NCBI RefSeq assembly: GCF_026571515.1
Contig: NW_026859747.1
Span: 248,001 to 312,000, forward strand
Direction of reading: 5' to 3'
DNA from: Ruditapes philippinarum
Lineage: Eukaryota
Length of the DNA: 64,000 bases
Of the stretch, positions 30,001-39,000 are shown one piece after another (the stretch's first letter is position 1; every line of letters begins with the position of its first letter). The position numbers are program-made.

Positions 30001-33000
30001 CATTCTGTTAATTCCTTTTTCTATATTTGTACTGAAGTACAGAATTCAGACAGGAAACGACTTTTATAGATTAAGATATAGCTTTAATTTCGTGTGACAT
30101 TTGGGTTACAAAAGGTATTGTTGATACTGATAATGTTCAAGGTAGAAATATTGTCTGGAGTAGGTATTTGGTTGTATGTAAATTTCACTTTCACTTTAAA
30201 CATTAGCAGTATCAACAGAACTTTTGAAACCCAAACATCTTTCGACATTATAGCAGTATCACAATCTATGAAAGTAAGTTGTTTTCTGTTTTTATTCTGC
30301 ACTTATGTACACTAGCTTTTAATATATATAAAAGAACTCTAAATGATTTTAACCTATGTATATGCAGGTGAATATCCGTCAAAACTATATGTGTCGTGTT
30401 TATAGCCGAATGTTATTAATCTGTGTATGTTGACTGCATTCTTATTCATACATTTTAGTTTTGTCTTTCTTCTATGTATATTGATTTGCATACATGACTG
30501 TAAAATTTCAAATGTATGCACGCCAATGTAAGGAATAGTAATGAAAATTGTTAATGCTGAAATTGAATCATTGTTTTTGATTTAAGACTTGTGGAAAATG
30601 ACAAACTATTGTGTAGAAGGTAGTATTCAATACGTACTTTATAAAAGTGTCAAATTGTTAGTTTTAATGTTTTATGACATATGCTTAGTGAAAAATCTTT
30701 TTATATTTCATAAATATAATATGTTCTGTGTGATGGGTAAAGCCAAAATGCTTACGAATCTTGTCAACTAAAATTAAGGAAATTTTCCCAGCAAATTTTC
30801 CCTGTCCTTTTGAAACAGTAGAGACAGGTGAATATATAACAGGTTTATCTTAGAAAATGGCATTTATTCTATTAATTATTTTCATTATTTTGTTGTATTT
30901 TCTGTTTAATCAAATTATAAGAACGGAGAGGACGACCAAATATAAAAGAATGGAGGCGATGACTGATAACAGAATACGTAACAATGGAATATGAGAACAA
31001 ATGCATACAGCAAACACGGAACATACATAAGTACGTTACAGAACAAAGAACTTAACAGAACATCCAACAGCTCTTAAACAATAGCAACAATGAAATACCA
31101 CAATCTGACAAGAAAAAAAAAGAACAGAAAATTTCGAAAGTGAAACAGACAACAAAAACTTTAAAACAATTAAAACAATGAAAATACGTTAAGTGACATA
31201 ACAAAATAGGTAGACGGATGATTGAAATCCCGCTACTATTAGACGACAAAATAATTGTAAATACTTTTTAAGTTGTCAGCCATATAAATGATTTACTTTA
31301 TAGCAAATTCATTAGTTTTAAGTATGATTTTTTGAACTATCCAAAAAACCCTATCGATTTAAAGAAAGAAAAANNNNNNNNNNNNNNNNNNNNNNNNNNN
31401 NNNNNNNNNNNNNNNNNNNNNNNNNNNNNNNNNNNNNNNNNNNNNNNNNNNNNNNNNNNNNNNNNNNNNNNNNNNNNNNNNNNNNNNNNNNNNNNNNNNN
31501 NNNNNNNNNNNNNNNNNNNNNNCCATGCGTGCGTATATGTATCTTTGTATGTATGAGACTTTCCAAAAGTATTTTTTACAAGACCCTTTTAAAAGGTCAA
31601 TTGTGAGAAAGACGACCTGGCAACATATTGAAGAATGAAGATGACCTTTGTCGTTTATTCTGTAAAAAATATTATAAAAAATAATATTCAATTTGAACAT
31701 TTTTGAAATAAGATTTTCCTAAAAAGAAGCACTATGGTTTTACAAGACCCTTTTAAAAGGTCAATTGTGAGAAAGACGACCTGGCTTACATATTGAAGAA
31801 TGAAGATGACCTTTGTCGTTTATTCTGTAAATTCATAGAACATGATTTATATGACAAAAACAAAACAAAAACAAAATAAACAACAAAAAACAACGAAAAA
31901 AAAACAAAAAACAACGAAAAACAACAAAAGAACAAAACATAAACACACCTACATACAACTCCATTTCGTAAGAACTTGATATTCAGTCAATTTTTACGAT
32001 TATGAAATAATAGGTTCACGAAGTACTGAAAATTGCCCTATCATCGAAACTCTTCAAACTTTGTAATATGATTGTCCAGGGAAGGCTTAAAAGTAAAACA
32101 TACAAATTTTTGTTTTCAAAACTATATTTTTGTTTCCATGGCAACGCAAAACAGAATACTTAAAATTATCTTTTTTCTCCATTTAGGTACATTTCTGATT
32201 GAAAGATTAACATTTGTTTCATTTATTTGTAAAACTTGCATTAAAGTTTGTAAAATCAAATATTTTGTTAGTTTCTTACAATGAAATTCAATTATAATCT
32301 CCATAGCAACCATTCTAAAAATAATTAGCTAAATGGTATCATATACTGAAAACTTCAGTATATTGAGCATTAAAATGTCAACATACAAAATCTATATCAA
32401 CATAAATAGTCATGTACTGAAATTATAGAATGTTAAATGTAAATACATAATCCCTGTTGCCATAGCAACGCTAAACAACATTCTTAAAATCGCTTTTTCT
32501 ATATTTAATTGCATGTATATTTCTCATTTAATGACTAACATTTGTTCCATATATTTGTAAAACTTGCCTTAACTTTTTAGATAAGAATATGTTGTTAGTT
32601 TCTCACATTGAAATTCAATTTTAATCTCCACAGCAACCATTCTTTTCATGTTTAGGTAAATTGTATCAAATATTGAAAATGTCAGTTTTTGCAATGTACA
32701 AAAAAACTACATGTGTATTACATTAATTATTATGTTTTGAATTCAAATTCAATGATAATCACCATAACAACTTTTCTTAACATGCTTAACTAAATTGTAT
32801 CATTAATTGAAAATGTCAGTTTTTGCAGTGTACAAAAAAAAACTACATGTATATTAAAGTAAATAATTATGTTTTGAATTGAAATTCAATTATAATCTCT
32901 CTAGCAACCACTATTAACATTCTAGCTTAACAACAGTTTATGTAGTGTACAGAAACACTACATGTATATCAACATAAGTAATTATGTTTTCAATTGAAAT

Positions 33001-36000: not shown

Positions 36001-39000
36001 CGGCATGAACTTTGGCATTTGTGCTTTTATTCCCATCTCCTCCAGCACTTGCAGGGAGTCACGAAATCCACGGTCAACAACAAATATATCATTTGGCTGA
36101 GCCCAATTTTTGATTTCCTCTATGTTATTCCTTACTGCATGGTTTAAAATTCCTGAATCACTATTTTTAGAATCCGCAAGATATGGTCCTAATACGGAAA
36201 TAAAGTATCCAGTGGTGCTGACTATTACCATAGGTTTAACAAGTGGCCGCCCTTTATGTACACTATAAGAACGTCTTTGGAATTTGAAGTTTGTACTTTT
36301 TCTAATATATATGTATGTTCCATCTAAAACAATTATAGCTTGGCTGGCATTTTCTGCAAGTAGTGACTGTGATAGGGAACGAGTATGGCTTTTTATAATT
36401 TCTTCTCTTGATATGTGCTGGAAGCCAAGATATTTAGGAACAAGTTCAGAAACAAGCACTTTTCTGATTGTATGTACTGCTCTTCTTATGCTTGATTTAG
36501 ATACATCAAAAAGTGTTGAAAGAATTTTGTTTGATAATCCAGACTTAAGTTTAAACATAAATATACCCAGTGTAGTAATGTTGCTTCTAACTGGCGTATT
36601 TCTAACATGTTCTTCAGTAATAGAGCATAAATCTAAGAACTGTTCTTTGTTCAAACCTGTAAGATTGCACAAATCGTCATTTGAAAATGTATCAATATTG
36701 TCAAATGACATTCTATTAGACGATGAATTAAGTATACACTGTCTGACATTATTTATAACATTCACAATTGTAGTCCGGTTTAATAAAACAGACTCTAATG
36801 TTTTTACGTTATCTAAAACATTTGCTTGGAAACCATTACGATTATTATTCAGGTGAGCAGGGCAACACCTACTGTCAGCTGTTATGAGGATATTATGCTT
36901 CACAAGTGTTTCTGTTCTAAGTTTTGATGGAACAACAATTAATTTAGATCCTACTTTCTTACAAATGAAACAGTATGAATGACTTTTTGAAATTGTTTTT
37001 AAGCTCAAAGAAACCGATGGTGGACTTGGCAATTGTTGAATATCATTCTTTTCTGCTGTGACAGGAACAGGACATGCTGATATTATAGGTCTTTGGTTAT
37101 GCTGAGAAGGATATGCCGGTCGGCTACATTTTCCACATATGTAGTCAGATTTTGAAGTTTCAAGCATGAACGTTTTTCTGAGATACCGGATAAGATATGG
37201 ATTCACAGGCCTCCTTTGATGTATCTTTAGTCTTTTCCCACACAAAACGCATGGAGTTGGAGCCATCCTAGAATAGAATATAAACATTATAGAATTAAAT
37301 TAAATAAATTCAGATTCAATTGATGCATCTAGTTTAATGAAAGAGATCTATGTTTAAAATTTCTCCATTATCAATTAAAAAGATAAGTTAAAAATAATTG
37401 ATTGCAACTGTTACAAGTAGTATTTCTTTGGTTACCAGTTTATCAACACTATTTCTCTTGTAGAAATTATGAAAATATTATTTGAATAGGAGCTTTGAAA
37501 TATTAAATCTAGTATGACAACAATTAAAAAAAAAAAAAAAAAAAAAGGAAGGAAGAAAAAAAATTGTACCTCATCTAGGTTTCGAACTCTGACCCTTTCA
37601 CATGCCATGCCATCGTTACAACCACTGCGCCATGAAGACTTTCGATAACCTGAGGAAGATAATTATAACTATATAATTATTCTACCGTGTTTTGTTGAAA
37701 TTAATTCACCCATAATTTATTTTACAGCCGATAATGTATTTCATAGATTGTTATTGATCACAAATATCTATTCCGACTGTATAACATTATTTCGTGGTTT
37801 TATCCCAAGTCATATTTAACGGACGAGAATTAGGCTTATCGTCTGCAAGTGCAAGCAGATCAACACTTTTAATGAAGAAAATCAAATTAAAATGGCACAG
37901 CGAACGAAAAAGAAACATGAATTTTATAAAGAATATGTTCAACATACCTTTACATGTCTACATATGTCAAGTAATTCAACAAATTGCTGCGTAACAATGA
38001 AAATGTGCACGTTGTTTATAACGATGAACTGTCAGTAAGAGTAGCGCCCCTTGCGTCGTGTAGACTACACTTCTAACGCATAACAAGTTTACACGGAATT
38101 CAATTGTCAAACTTCAAGATTCATGCGAGTGAGTAATGAAAATATCATTAATGCCACTGTCATTTATTTTATTTTATTCAAATAAAATTTACAAATACAA
38201 TAGCAATCAATTAATGAAAGGAAAGCCTGCAAACAAAAGCTTGTAATTCGACCCCGAGTCACTCGTAACTTTGACCATCTGCTAAGTATATTACATAAAA
38301 ATTAAGAATGAAGGCACTATTTCGACACCTTGAAATTTTGAGTGCCAATTAGTTGATATTAAAGTAAAGTATGTTTGAAATATCCAAGTGTCGGGAAAAT
38401 GCCTTCATATTTTTTTCCGTTGAAAGATATGGCGAAAATGACGAAAACACGTGAAATATTCGACATAGGTGTTTTTATTTCGTATTTTACTCCTTCCAGA
38501 AATGAATTTAAATAAAATTTTAGACCATGCTTAGAATGAATAAGTATCATGCCTGCGAGATATGTTATTTGTTTTGTTTTATTGCAATCTTTATATTTTA
38601 CTAATTTGCTGGGCCAATTCACATGTTTCGTGAACCTAGCCCTTAAACATCAATTATGTTAAACTACAGCAGTATTTGACACTTAAAATGTCAATCATGA
38701 TATGATAACTGAATTTGAAACCATTTTTAAATCTGTGCAAGTTTAATATTCAATAAACAGTTTCTATTTTTTTGGAGAATGTGGTGCAATACTGTGTCTT
38801 TTCTAATGCATTTTACAGCAGCTATTGAGTGGTTTTAGTATTTTATTTAAAAGCTTCTTTATTTCTCTGAAGATTGAATTTCCTTCAGACGTTTATTTAC
38901 GCATTTCTAAGGGCCTCAGTAGTTTTTGTGATATCTTGTCAATAGACGAATGTTCTATACTGCACAAAGTAATGTGTCAACACTCTTTACAACTTATTGA

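What the first reader, a model, noticed from the sequence alone, without database searches (positions are those of the whole stretch)
32011..38638. Intact single-gene Harbinger/ISL2EU-like transposon with a SWIM finger fused to the DDE transposase
Seen: 12-bp TIRs; a spliced, uninterrupted ~679 aa ORF with a CxxC..CxxC finger, a CxxC..CxxH finger, an HTH, a complete D-D-E triad and a C-terminal CxC-x9-CxH SWIM-like finger; no second long ORF in the element. Known: PIF/Harbinger elements usually pair the transposase with a Myb/MADF protein and make TWA TSDs, and ISL2EU elements pair it with a YqaJ exonuclease. Inference: this may be a distinct one-protein lineage with TA-flanked ends and a fused SWIM module, and it may be recently active or still mobile.
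Basis: partly seen in the sequence, partly recalled or inferred. Interest (0 to 1): 0.7.

Follow-up and report, generated by a model that had tools for sequence, protein, structure and literature searches.

The report
Spy-type transposase gene in a clam
This is an intact-looking copy of a single-gene "cut-and-paste" transposon of an already described group (Spy, close kin of ISL2EU and Harbinger) in a clam genome; its zinc-finger tail is real, but its proposed ends are not proven.

Summary
The coding part of the finding holds. A two-exon, 679-aa open gene lies on the minus strand (37266-35944 and 35189-34476). It has two N-terminal Cys fingers, an HTH, a complete D-D-E core split by the intron, and a conserved C-terminal CxC-x9-CxH SWIM-type domain. 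There is no second gene. I searched exon by exon and never built the joined protein.

The 12-nt inverted words exist, but matches of that length are at chance level: 22 of 24 control placements in the same window have one. They do not recur in the window. No eukaryotic DNA collection was open, so copy boundaries could not be tested. A second candidate pair scores better (20 of 22 nt, flanked AAAT/ATTT) but is also unproven.

The "distinct one-protein lineage" is most likely the published Spy group of the PHIS superfamily, which Repbase files under ISL2EU. Spy elements have one ORF of about 700 aa and occur in bivalves, Hymenoptera and Lepidoptera; an oyster Spy was active in human cells. I could not place it by phylogeny against reference sequences.

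What may be new is small. The SWIM tail and the Cys fingers are conserved family-wide but absent from the Spy/PHIS papers I could search, and the family is far commoner in bivalves than reported. Verdict: new member of a known kind; modest interest.

The parts
35944..37266 (-). Exon 1 of the transposase gene (441 aa, ATG at 37266, last codon AAG ending at 35944)
   Evidence: Open frame and GT donor at 35943-35942; DDE_Tnp_4 profile positions 1-112 at aa 314-438; 465 database relatives at E <= 0.001
35190..35943 (-). Intron (754 nt, GT...AG, phase 0)
   Evidence: the same junction is read through in P0016; exon-1-only ORF predictions P0001 and P0010 run past ...LVTK with a V and then diverge (2 of 2 inspected)
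34473..35189 (-). Exon 2 (238 aa plus stop 34475-34473): end of the DDE core, helical linker, SWIM domain, acidic tail
   Evidence: AlphaFold2 model mean pLDDT 89.0
37126..37251 (-). First finger, CxxC-x34-CxxC (C6, C9, C44, C47)
   Evidence: Nearly invariant in 50 sequences; model pLDDT 95-98 over residues 1-50; weak fold likeness to ZAD domains only
36853..36972 (-). Second finger, CxxC-x32-CxxH (C99, C102, C135, H138), with THAP-like spacing
   Evidence: Invariant in 50 sequences; Pfam THAP not matched for the window protein at E <= 1; weak fold hit to the P-element THAP domain 3kde_C, E 0.58, probability 0.51
36442..36561 (-). HTH_Tnp_4-like helix-turn-helix (aa 236-275)
   Evidence: 25.4 bits against a cut-off of 27; 10 of 15 relatives match it at E <= 1
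35064..36327 (-). DDE_Tnp_4 catalytic core, interrupted by the intron; D315 = 36322-36324, D398 = 36073-36075, E447 = 35172-35174
   Evidence: D, D and E lie in invariant or near-invariant columns
34599..34709 (-). SWIM-type zinc finger (exon 2 aa 161-197; CxC-x9-CxH = C175, C177, C187, H189)
   Evidence: Pfam SWIM 19.2 bits against a cut-off of 19.6; C, C, C invariant and H nearly invariant in 81 sequences; model has four strands then a helix; the best two PDB fold matches are ZSWIM8 chains, probability 0.97 and 0.92, E 0.008 and 0.010
32011..32022 (+).
   Evidence: Exact; length at chance level; rare only under the GG plus 2-nt flank reading
38627..38638 (-).
   Evidence: As above
33739..33760 (+). 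Alternative left arm: a 22-nt motif (AAAT then GGTATCAT...), also at 32331-32352 and, with TG in place of GG, at 32658-32679 and 32792-32813
   Evidence: 20 of 22 complementary to 39280-39301; none of 60 shuffles reaches 20; 1 of 24 control placements does. It lies inside a repeated unit, so it may be satellite sequence and not an element end
39280..39301 (-). Alternative right arm (...GAAACC then ATTT)
   Evidence: sits in a degenerate 21-nt tandem repeat, 39261-39319
32817..33972 (.).
   Evidence: whether it belongs to the element is not known
35534..35899 (.). MITE-like insert inside the intron (23-nt inverted ends, outermost TTAA on both sides)
   Evidence: pair I1, 96% complementary

Best explanation
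The locus holds an apparently intact copy of the transposase gene of a Spy-group element. Spy belongs to the PHIS superfamily, and Repbase files it under ISL2EU. The host is a venerid clam, probably Ruditapes philippinarum or a very close relative.

The 679-aa protein is a stand-alone cut-and-paste enzyme. Two N-terminal Cys fingers and an HTH would recognise the element ends. An RNase-H-like D315/D398/E447 core would cut and rejoin DNA. After a helical linker, a C-terminal beta-sheet-plus-helix SWIM zinc module follows, then an acidic tail.

By analogy with tested Spy elements, it would need no Myb-like or YqaJ helper and would insert at an A/T palindrome (AAA|TTT) without a target-site duplication.

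Shown here: the gene structure, the domains, their conservation, the lack of a second gene, the multi-copy and multi-lineage family, and the host range.

Inferred: membership in Spy (from published descriptions, not from a tree with reference sequences), what each finger does, and mobility.

The true ends of this copy are not established.
For: Gene and domains.

Conservation of the fingers, DDE and SWIM.

SWIM fold: model pLDDT 89.0; the top two PDB matches are ZSWIM8 chains.

Single gene: 0 of 42 flank ORFs with a Pfam hit.

Family size: 465 proteins at E <= 0.001 with exon 1; 1645 representatives of 50%-identity clusters at E <= 0.001 and 752 at E <= 1e-10 with exon 2. Full-length relatives are 660-730 aa with the same order of modules.

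Host range of organism-named hits: many bivalves, plus Leptopilina boulardi and Cyphomyrmex costatus (Hymenoptera), Euphydryas editha (Lepidoptera) and Gigantopelta aegis (gastropod). Spy is reported from Crassostrea gigas and C. virginica, ants, bees, Lepidoptera, Hydra and a rotifer (passages).

[quoted passage not shown] This protein has D-82-D-48-E.

The 15 'Spy-specific' conserved residues listed in Han 2014 (Y,S,N,L,P,G,P,A,R,D,Q,N,V,T,W) can be threaded in that order onto near-invariant residues of this family. This is my reading. It is a lead only, because the figure is not held.

Multi-copy and young: P0016 is 480/486 identical; two more diverged R. philippinarum paralogues exist (P0121, P0064); oyster clusters hold 48-64 member sequences at 90% identity; tree.
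Against: No Spy, ISL2EU, Harbinger, Pangu or Nuwa reference sequence could be fetched. Group placement therefore rests on descriptions, not on a phylogeny.

The first D-D spacing is 82, not 79-80.

Han 2014 states that most Spy transposases have no zinc-finger domain. This family has two N-terminal fingers, one with THAP-like C2CH spacing, which is the ISL2EU trait.

Diaby 2024 reports Spy in only 4 mollusc species, whereas this family is in more than a dozen bivalve genera.

They begin GGTTCACG, which departs from GGANNNNG at the third base. No pair of canonical Spy ends (AAA followed by GGANNNNG) brackets the gene.

The Atlas search put THAP+HTH+DDE_Tnp_4 clusters at 0.88-0.89, below the tool's 0.9 line.
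Confidence: 0.62

Rival explanations
1. A PHIS lineage distinct from Spy and ISL2EU: a one-protein group with its own end structure (TA duplication, GG-starting 10-nt TIRs) and a fused SWIM module.
For: The TA + GG-start 10-nt pair is rare by chance under that reading (0.6-1.2% of 1000 shuffles). Zinc fingers and SWIM are not described for Spy in the texts searched. The D-D spacing is 82, against 79-80 for Spy. TA-duplicating PHIS relatives exist in fungi (passage of PMC12730594).
Against: The architecture, the length of about 700 aa and the host range match Spy. The 12-nt pair is at chance level by length and does not recur. SWIM scores below Pfam's cut-off in every relative tested, so its absence from papers that relied on domain scans is expected and is no sign of a different family.
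Confidence: 0.14
2. A canonical ISL2EU element that has lost its YqaJ exonuclease gene in this copy.
For: The N-terminal C2CH finger has THAP-like spacing, followed by HTH and DDE. There is a weak fold hit to the P-element THAP domain. The alternative ends are flanked AAAT...ATTT and start GG, which fits the published A|AT|T target and GG start of ISL2EU (section 5 of PMC4482050).
Against: No YqaJ remnant: 0 of 42 flank ORFs hit Pfam. Pfam THAP is not matched by the window protein and is not among the 25 families listed, of 32, for 15 relatives, so at most one member matches it weakly. The many near-full-length relatives of about 680-700 aa in many species point to a stably single-gene family.
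Confidence: 0.1
3. A host gene family derived from a transposase (domesticated), or an immobile orphan copy without working ends.
For: The ends are not established. The intron position is conserved. RefSeq annotates relatives as ordinary genes. A MITE-like insert sits in the intron and a SINE-like piece lies upstream.
Against: There are many diverged paralogues per genome. For example, well over ten differently numbered Saccostrea cucullata loci at about 40-50% identity are listed, and three lineages occur in R. philippinarum. Clusters hold tens of near-identical members. All catalytic residues are kept. Distribution across phyla is patchy.
Confidence: 0.1

Closest known systems
Spy group of the PHIS superfamily (Han et al. 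2014, PMC4122938; cgSpy/cvSpy of Diaby et al. 2024, PMC11304231): passages read
   Same: One gene only. Transposase of about 700 aa. HTH followed by a DDE_Tnp_4-type core, with D-82-D-48-E here against the published D(79-80)D(44-62)E. Hosts are bivalves, Hymenoptera and Lepidoptera. Signs of recent activity in oysters.
   Different: Published Spy transposases are said mostly to lack zinc fingers, and no C-terminal SWIM is mentioned. The canonical ends (GGANNNNG, inserted AAA|TTT, no duplication) were not found around this copy. No sequence-level comparison with a named Spy element was possible.
ISL2EU (Repbase superfamily; Han et al. 2015, PMC4482050: section 5 and passages read)
   Same: Sister or containing group of Spy. 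The transposase has an N-terminal zinc finger (THAP), an HTH and a DDE core. TIRs usually start GG. The target is an A/T palindrome.
   Different: ISL2EU elements usually carry a second gene with a YqaJ exonuclease domain, and none is here. Pfam THAP is not matched.
PIF/Harbinger proper (for example HARBI1 relatives)
   Same: The same Pfam catalytic family (DDE_Tnp_4) and HTH_Tnp_4.
   Different: Harbinger needs a Myb/SANT partner gene and makes TWA duplications. Its transposases are shorter and have neither the N-terminal fingers nor the roughly 190-aa C-terminal extension.
SWIM zinc fingers of MULE/MuDR transposases, FAR1/FHY3 and ZSWIM proteins (the MULE and FAR1 part is recalled, not from a call)
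   Same: A CxC-x(n)-CxH signature C-terminal to a DDE transposase core. The predicted beta-strands-then-helix fold has ZSWIM8 as its best PDB match.
   Different: The catalytic superfamily is unrelated to MULE. The Pfam score is just under the cut-off. The function in this context is untested.

Membership tests
PHIS superfamily (DDE_Tnp_4 transposases) | DDE_Tnp_4-type catalytic core with D, D, E and the R-x3-E motif | tested here: met
   29.5 bits against a cut-off of 24.8 in exon 1, with the profile continuing in exon 2. D315, D398 and E447, with R443-x3-E447, lie in conserved columns.
Spy | A single gene; transposase of about 700 aa with an HTH N-terminal of the DDE core | tested here: met
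   679 aa in two exons. HTH_Tnp_4 25.4 bits. No other ORF with a domain. Published trait from passages.
Spy | D(79-80)D(44-62)E spacing | tested here: inconclusive
   Here D-82-D-48-E. The second spacing fits; the first is 2-3 residues longer.
Spy | Insertion between AAA and TTT without target-site duplication | tested here: inconclusive
The alternative pair is flanked AAAT/ATTT, which is compatible with an AAATTT empty site. The true ends are unknown.
Spy | Terminal consensus 5'-GGANNNNG-3' | tested here: not met
Alternative arms: GGTATCAT and GGTTTCAT. No AAA+GGANNNNG pair brackets the gene. This applies only to the candidate ends, which are unproven.
Spy | Placement in the Spy clade of a DDE-core phylogeny | not testable with these tools
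   No reference transposases of any PHIS group could be fetched. The tree holds only unnamed or 'uncharacterized' relatives.
Spy | Host range: invertebrates only (arthropods, molluscs, cnidarians, a rotifer) | tested here: met
   The hits that name an organism are bivalves, a gastropod, two Hymenoptera and one lepidopteran. One row is labelled as a bacterial MAG from a clam symbiont (P0143), probably host DNA.
ISL2EU | Second gene with a YqaJ exonuclease domain | tested here: not met
   0 of 42 ORFs of 35 aa or more in the flanks hit any Pfam family at E <= 0.01.
ISL2EU | THAP domain at the N-terminus of the transposase | tested here: inconclusive
   An invariant C2CH finger, CxxC-x32-CxxH. 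Pfam THAP is not matched. The fold hit to the P-element THAP domain has E 0.58 and probability 0.51.
ISL2EU | AT duplication within an A|AT|T target; TIR starting GG | tested here: inconclusive
Alternative pair: GG start with AAAT/ATTT flanks. Neither pair is verified.
PIF/Harbinger proper | Myb/SANT or MADF partner gene and a TWA duplication | tested here: not met
No such ORF.
SWIM zinc finger (Pfam PF04434) | CxC-x(n)-CxH in a strand-strand-helix module, scoring above the family cut-off | tested here: inconclusive
   The signature is present and conserved in 81 sequences. The score is 19.2 bits against a cut-off of 19.6. 5 of 15 relatives match at E <= 1, the best at 0.019. The modelled fold is best matched by ZSWIM8, with E 0.008 and no PDB match at E <= 0.001.

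The most novel reading that the evidence does not exclude
The roughly 190-aa C-terminal extension, with its SWIM zinc module, and the two N-terminal Cys fingers are universal but so far undescribed parts of Spy-type transposases. They would let one protein do what Harbinger and ISL2EU need two proteins for, and the SWIM module would take part in the unusual duplication-free insertion at AAA|TTT. Alternatively, this bivalve-rich clade is a separate sister group of Spy with its own end structure.
Probability: 0.2. Interest if true: 0.5.

Novelty: new member of a known kind. Interest (0 to 1): 0.3.

Why it matters
Spy transposons are unusual because they insert without a target-site duplication, and one of them (cgSpy) is being developed as a gene-transfer tool (abstract and passages of PMC11304231). 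If this clam copy and its many bivalve relatives are Spy elements, two things follow.

First, the group is much commoner in bivalves than the four mollusc species reported.

Second, its transposase carries conserved zinc modules (a C4 finger, a C2CH finger and a C-terminal SWIM) that the papers I could search do not mention. These are obvious targets for mutagenesis in the existing cell assay.

For genome annotation, the practical point is that RefSeq lists these as 'uncharacterized protein' host genes.

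Tried and rejected
1. Other copies in the window: a self-BLAST of 31000-39600 against the 64 kb found none. The 12-nt word has only its two sites.

2. tRNA or SINE identity of the tRNA-like stretch near 37560-37640: ARAGORN found 0 genes in the window. Rfam at E <= 1 gave only a chance miRNA row.

3. Canonical Spy ends: the pattern AAA+GGANNNNG has 9 window matches against about 6 expected, and none is suitably placed on both sides of the gene.

4. A wide screen for GG-starting inverted 12-mers (10 or more of 12 matching) gave 62 mostly meaningless pairs.

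5. Extended similarity between the two flanks: none beyond the 23-nt inverted match.

6. Sequence search of PDB with either exon: nothing significant.

7. Fold search with the N-terminal 160 aa: no match at E <= 0.001, only weak ZAD, THAP and RING-like rows.

8. The listing of cluster members for P0016 could not be run because the database was off, so the number and names of near-identical copies are unknown.

9. Literature on a SWIM fused to a Harbinger, ISL2EU or Spy transposase. The searches were 'ISL2EU'+'SWIM' (2 papers, both irrelevant), 'Harbinger/SWIM/transposase/bivalve', 'DDE_Tnp_4'+'SWIM' (2 papers; 'swim' in the one opened, PMC8697882, is 'swimming crab'; the other known from its listing only) and 'Harbinger/SWIM zinc finger/Ulp1'. 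Nothing was found. Repbase Reports and subscription journals are not in that library.

10. No complex prediction was run, because no binding claim is made.

Full report
WHAT THE WINDOW IS. The window is AT-rich (about 26-38% G+C in 2-kb steps) and eukaryotic. The best organism-named match of the gene is a Ruditapes philippinarum protein, P0016 (source name LOC132755673). It is 243/248 and 237/238 identical to the two exons. The window therefore most likely comes from that clam or a very close relative. It is not human. An N run at 31374-31522 was left alone.

THE OBSERVATION: CODING PART. The coding part holds. On the minus strand an ATG at 37266 opens a frame that runs to 35944. A GT follows at 35943-35942, an AG precedes 35189, and the frame continues in phase 0 to 34476, with a stop at 34475-34473. 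That gives 441 + 238 = 679 aa. The joined protein was never built, searched or folded, so every statement about the whole protein is put together from the two halves.

The splice is supported in three ways:
- Pfam DDE_Tnp_4 covers profile positions 1-112 at the end of exon 1 and 117-158 at the start of exon 2.
- P0016 reads through exactly this junction.
- Two exon-1-only ORF predictions from other bivalve assemblies (P0001, P0010) run past ...LVTK with one V and then diverge, as expected for a conserved GT intron (2 of 2 inspected).

Domains found:
- DDE_Tnp_4 is above its cut-off.
- HTH_Tnp_4 (25.4 bits against 27) and SWIM (19.2 bits against 19.6) are just below theirs.

THE FINGERS AND THE SWIM TAIL. 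In an alignment of 50 sequences, C99, C102, C135 and H138 are invariant and C6, C9, C44 and C47 nearly so. In 81 sequences aligned to exon 2, the catalytic E6 and the SWIM C175, C177 and C187 are invariant and H189 nearly so.

An AlphaFold2 model of exon 2, built with that alignment, has mean pLDDT 89.0. It shows helices, then four strands, then a helix that begins at the CxH. Its two best PDB fold matches are chains of ZSWIM8 (probability 0.97 and 0.92; E 0.008 and 0.010), although no PDB match reaches E <= 0.001. I therefore accept a SWIM-type zinc module.

The N-terminal 160 aa also model confidently (pLDDT 86.6). Their fold matches are weak: ZAD domains, the THAP domain of the P-element transposase at E 0.58, and RING-like fingers. 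The C2CH spacing is THAP-like, but Pfam THAP is not matched. For 15 relatives it is not among the 25 families listed of 32.

NO SECOND GENE. None of 42 stop-to-stop ORFs of 35 aa or more in 31523-34472 and 37267-39400 hits Pfam at E <= 0.01. The longer ORFs gave nothing relevant.

THE ENDS. The two 12-nt words are there and are exact, but this is not more than chance. Between the gene's flanks there are 3 exact inverted matches of 12 nt or more. 300 dinucleotide shuffles give 4.05 on average, and 98.7% of them have at least one. On real DNA elsewhere in the window, 22 of 24 placements of the same geometry have one.

One reading raises the odds. Taken as TA + GGTTCACGAA, the pair has the GG start that PHIS ends usually show (section 5 of PMC4482050) and an identical 2-nt flank. 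Only 0.6% (TA or AT) to 1.2% (any flank) of 1000 shuffles give such a pair. That test was framed after seeing the pair, so I treat it as a lead.

A second candidate appeared. It is a 22-nt motif (AAAT then GGTATCAT...) at 33739-33760 and 32331-32352, with TG variants at 32658 and 32792. Its inverted partner is at 39280-39301, 20 of 22 matching.
- No shuffle of 60 reaches 20 of 22.
- Only 1 of 24 control placements does, and that one holds a real repeat family.
- Its flanks, AAAT and ATTT, would restore AAATTT on excision. That fits the Spy target and also the ISL2EU A|AT|T reading.
- Against it: the left arm lies inside a repeated unit of the satellite-like array. The pattern was derived from these same copies. 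Similarity does not extend inward.

No other copy lies in the window. The only DNA collections open to me hold prokaryotes, phages, plasmids and E. coli. The decisive test, shared boundaries among genomic copies, could therefore not be run.

WHAT FAMILY IT IS. Search results:
- Exon 1 finds 465 proteins at E <= 0.001, of 5050 candidates scored. Among the 120 listed, every row that names an organism names a bivalve.
- Exon 2, searched among longer proteins, finds 52. All those with precomputed Pfam domains carry DDE_Tnp_4. They include a wasp protein and a record labelled as a clam-symbiont MAG, probably host DNA.
- Against 1.84 billion cluster representatives, exon 2 finds 1645 at E <= 0.001, 752 at E <= 1e-10 and 71 at E <= 1e-30.
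- A profile of 15 diverse members finds 609 at E <= 1e-10. Besides bivalves, the organisms named are Leptopilina boulardi, Cyphomyrmex costatus, Euphydryas editha and Gigantopelta aegis.

Full-length members are about 660-730 aa and share the whole module order. In a quick maximum-likelihood tree of 44 rows, the window's exon 1 pairs with P0016. It sits in a well-supported seven-row clade with another R. philippinarum paralogue, a Dreissena protein and three unnamed ones, inside a 22-row bivalve clade. The insect proteins form their own clade.

This picture matches a published group. Spy (Han 2014, PMC4122938; passages) is the PHIS group with these traits:
- a single ORF, an N-terminal HTH and a D(79-80)D(44-62)E core;
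- no target-site duplication, insertion at AAA|TTT, and the terminal consensus GGANNNNG;
- hosts that include Crassostrea gigas, six Hymenoptera, four Lepidoptera, Hydra and a rotifer;
- a sister relation to ISL2EU.

[quoted passage not shown] It reports elements of 1165-5910 bp and recent activity in Ostreida. It also reports that the Crassostrea virginica transposase (cvSpy) works in HeLa cells at about 35% of hyperactive piggyBac. Kojima 2025 (PMC12730594, passages) notes that Repbase classifies Spy as ISL2EU.

The protein here has D-82-D-48-E. The 15 residues that Han 2014 lists as Spy-specific can be threaded in order onto this family's near-invariant positions. I cannot check this against their figure, so it is a lead only.

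WHAT SPEAKS AGAINST THAT, STATED FULLY.
- I had no reference sequence of any PHIS group, so there is no phylogenetic placement.
- The first D-D spacing is 2-3 residues too long.
- Han 2014 says most Spy transposases lack zinc fingers, while this family has two, one of them THAP-like as in ISL2EU.
- Diaby 2024 counts only 4 mollusc species.
- The Atlas look-alike search put THAP+HTH+DDE_Tnp_4 clusters at 0.88-0.89, under the tool's own 0.9 line.

A sister lineage of Spy, or an ISL2EU branch that lost YqaJ, therefore stays possible.

WHY SWIM MAY HAVE GONE UNREPORTED. In every relative tested, the Pfam SWIM score is below the cut-off. It appears at E <= 0.01 in 2 of 22 long representatives and at E <= 1 in 5 of 15 profile members, the best at 0.019. 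Papers that relied on domain scans would not have listed it. UniRef does name several of these proteins 'SWIM-type domain-containing protein'. The words 'SWIM' and 'zinc' do not occur in PMC11304231, and 'SWIM' and 'zinc finger' do not occur in PMC4482050. Four literature searches found no paper on a SWIM in a Harbinger, ISL2EU or Spy transposase. The library lacks Repbase Reports and most subscription journals, and supplements were closed.

HOW IT MOST LIKELY WORKS. Shown: a complete catalytic triad in a DDE_Tnp_4 core, DNA-binding-type modules before it, a zinc module after it, and no helper gene. Inferred:
- The fingers and the HTH bind the element ends.
- The core excises the element and inserts it at an A/T palindrome, as tested Spy elements do.
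- The SWIM domain serves assembly of the transposase complex or target choice.
- The acidic Ser/Asp/Glu tail is regulatory.

On activity, the copy keeps every conserved residue I checked. Its near-twin P0016 has a Glu at a near-invariant Val next to the catalytic E, and its model lacks the N-terminal fingers. At least two young copies or alleles therefore exist, and this one is the better preserved. Against current mobility: the ends are unproven, a MITE-like insert lies in the intron (35534-35899), and a tRNA-like fragment lies about 300-370 nt upstream of the ATG.

VERDICT. The gene model and domains are confirmed. The termini are not. The thing is a new member of a known kind: a Spy/ISL2EU-clade element in a venerid clam. 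Two modest extras come with it, namely conserved zinc modules that the accessible literature does not describe, and a much wider bivalve distribution than published. Interest 0.3.

Noticed in passing
relatives P0207, P0209, P0215, P0216, P0243: 5 of 22 long relatives carry a Ulp1-type protease domain (Peptidase_C48) fused C-terminal to the HTH-DDE-SWIM transposase, giving proteins of 733-1000 aa. They form a separate, well-supported clade in the tree. Their organisms are unknown.
   Followed up: partly
window 35534-35899: A 366-nt MITE-like insert lies inside the transposase intron. Its 23-nt inverted ends are 96% complementary, with TTAA outermost on both sides (a piggyBac-like target or part of the repeat). 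There is no other copy in the window.
   Followed up: partly
window 32050-33972: A satellite-like block lies 3' of the gene: about 10 copies of a 116-nt unit (32817-33972, 88% matches), preceded by related units of 134 nt and about 330 nt. The 22-nt motif of the alternative inverted pair recurs four times in it.
   Followed up: partly
window 37530-37640, minus strand: A stretch with tRNA-like A-box and B-box look, followed by a long A/T run, about 300-370 nt upstream of the ATG. It may be a SINE fragment. ARAGORN and Rfam do not call it.
   Followed up: partly
   Followed up: no
window 45589-46212: A mariner-type transposase fragment (Pfam Transposase_1, E 9.8e-23) in an ORF of 208 aa.
   Followed up: no
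window 2688-3203, 6994-7524, 27612-28010: ORFs with weak, sub-cut-off matches to the end of the retinol-binding-protein receptor (STRA6-like) profile. Two of them match the same last 30 profile positions, which suggests duplicated last exons of a host gene upstream of the transposon.
   Followed up: no
window 166-385, 1384-1745, 6193-6405: An interspersed, internally palindromic repeat family, with arms of 40-87 nt at 85-98% complementarity. It caused the one control placement that beat the transposon's inverted pair.
   Followed up: no
P0133 and P0303: The wasp (Leptopilina boulardi) and ant (Cyphomyrmex costatus) proteins are 79% identical to each other but about 40-45% identical to the bivalve ones. 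Oyster pairs from different genera are also very close in the tree. This may reflect horizontal transfer; I did not test it.
   Followed up: no
P0143: A 431-aa relative is deposited as a transposase of a 'Candidatus Thiodiazotropha endolucinida' MAG (a clam symbiont) on a 2.6-kb contig. It is probably host DNA binned by mistake.
   Followed up: no
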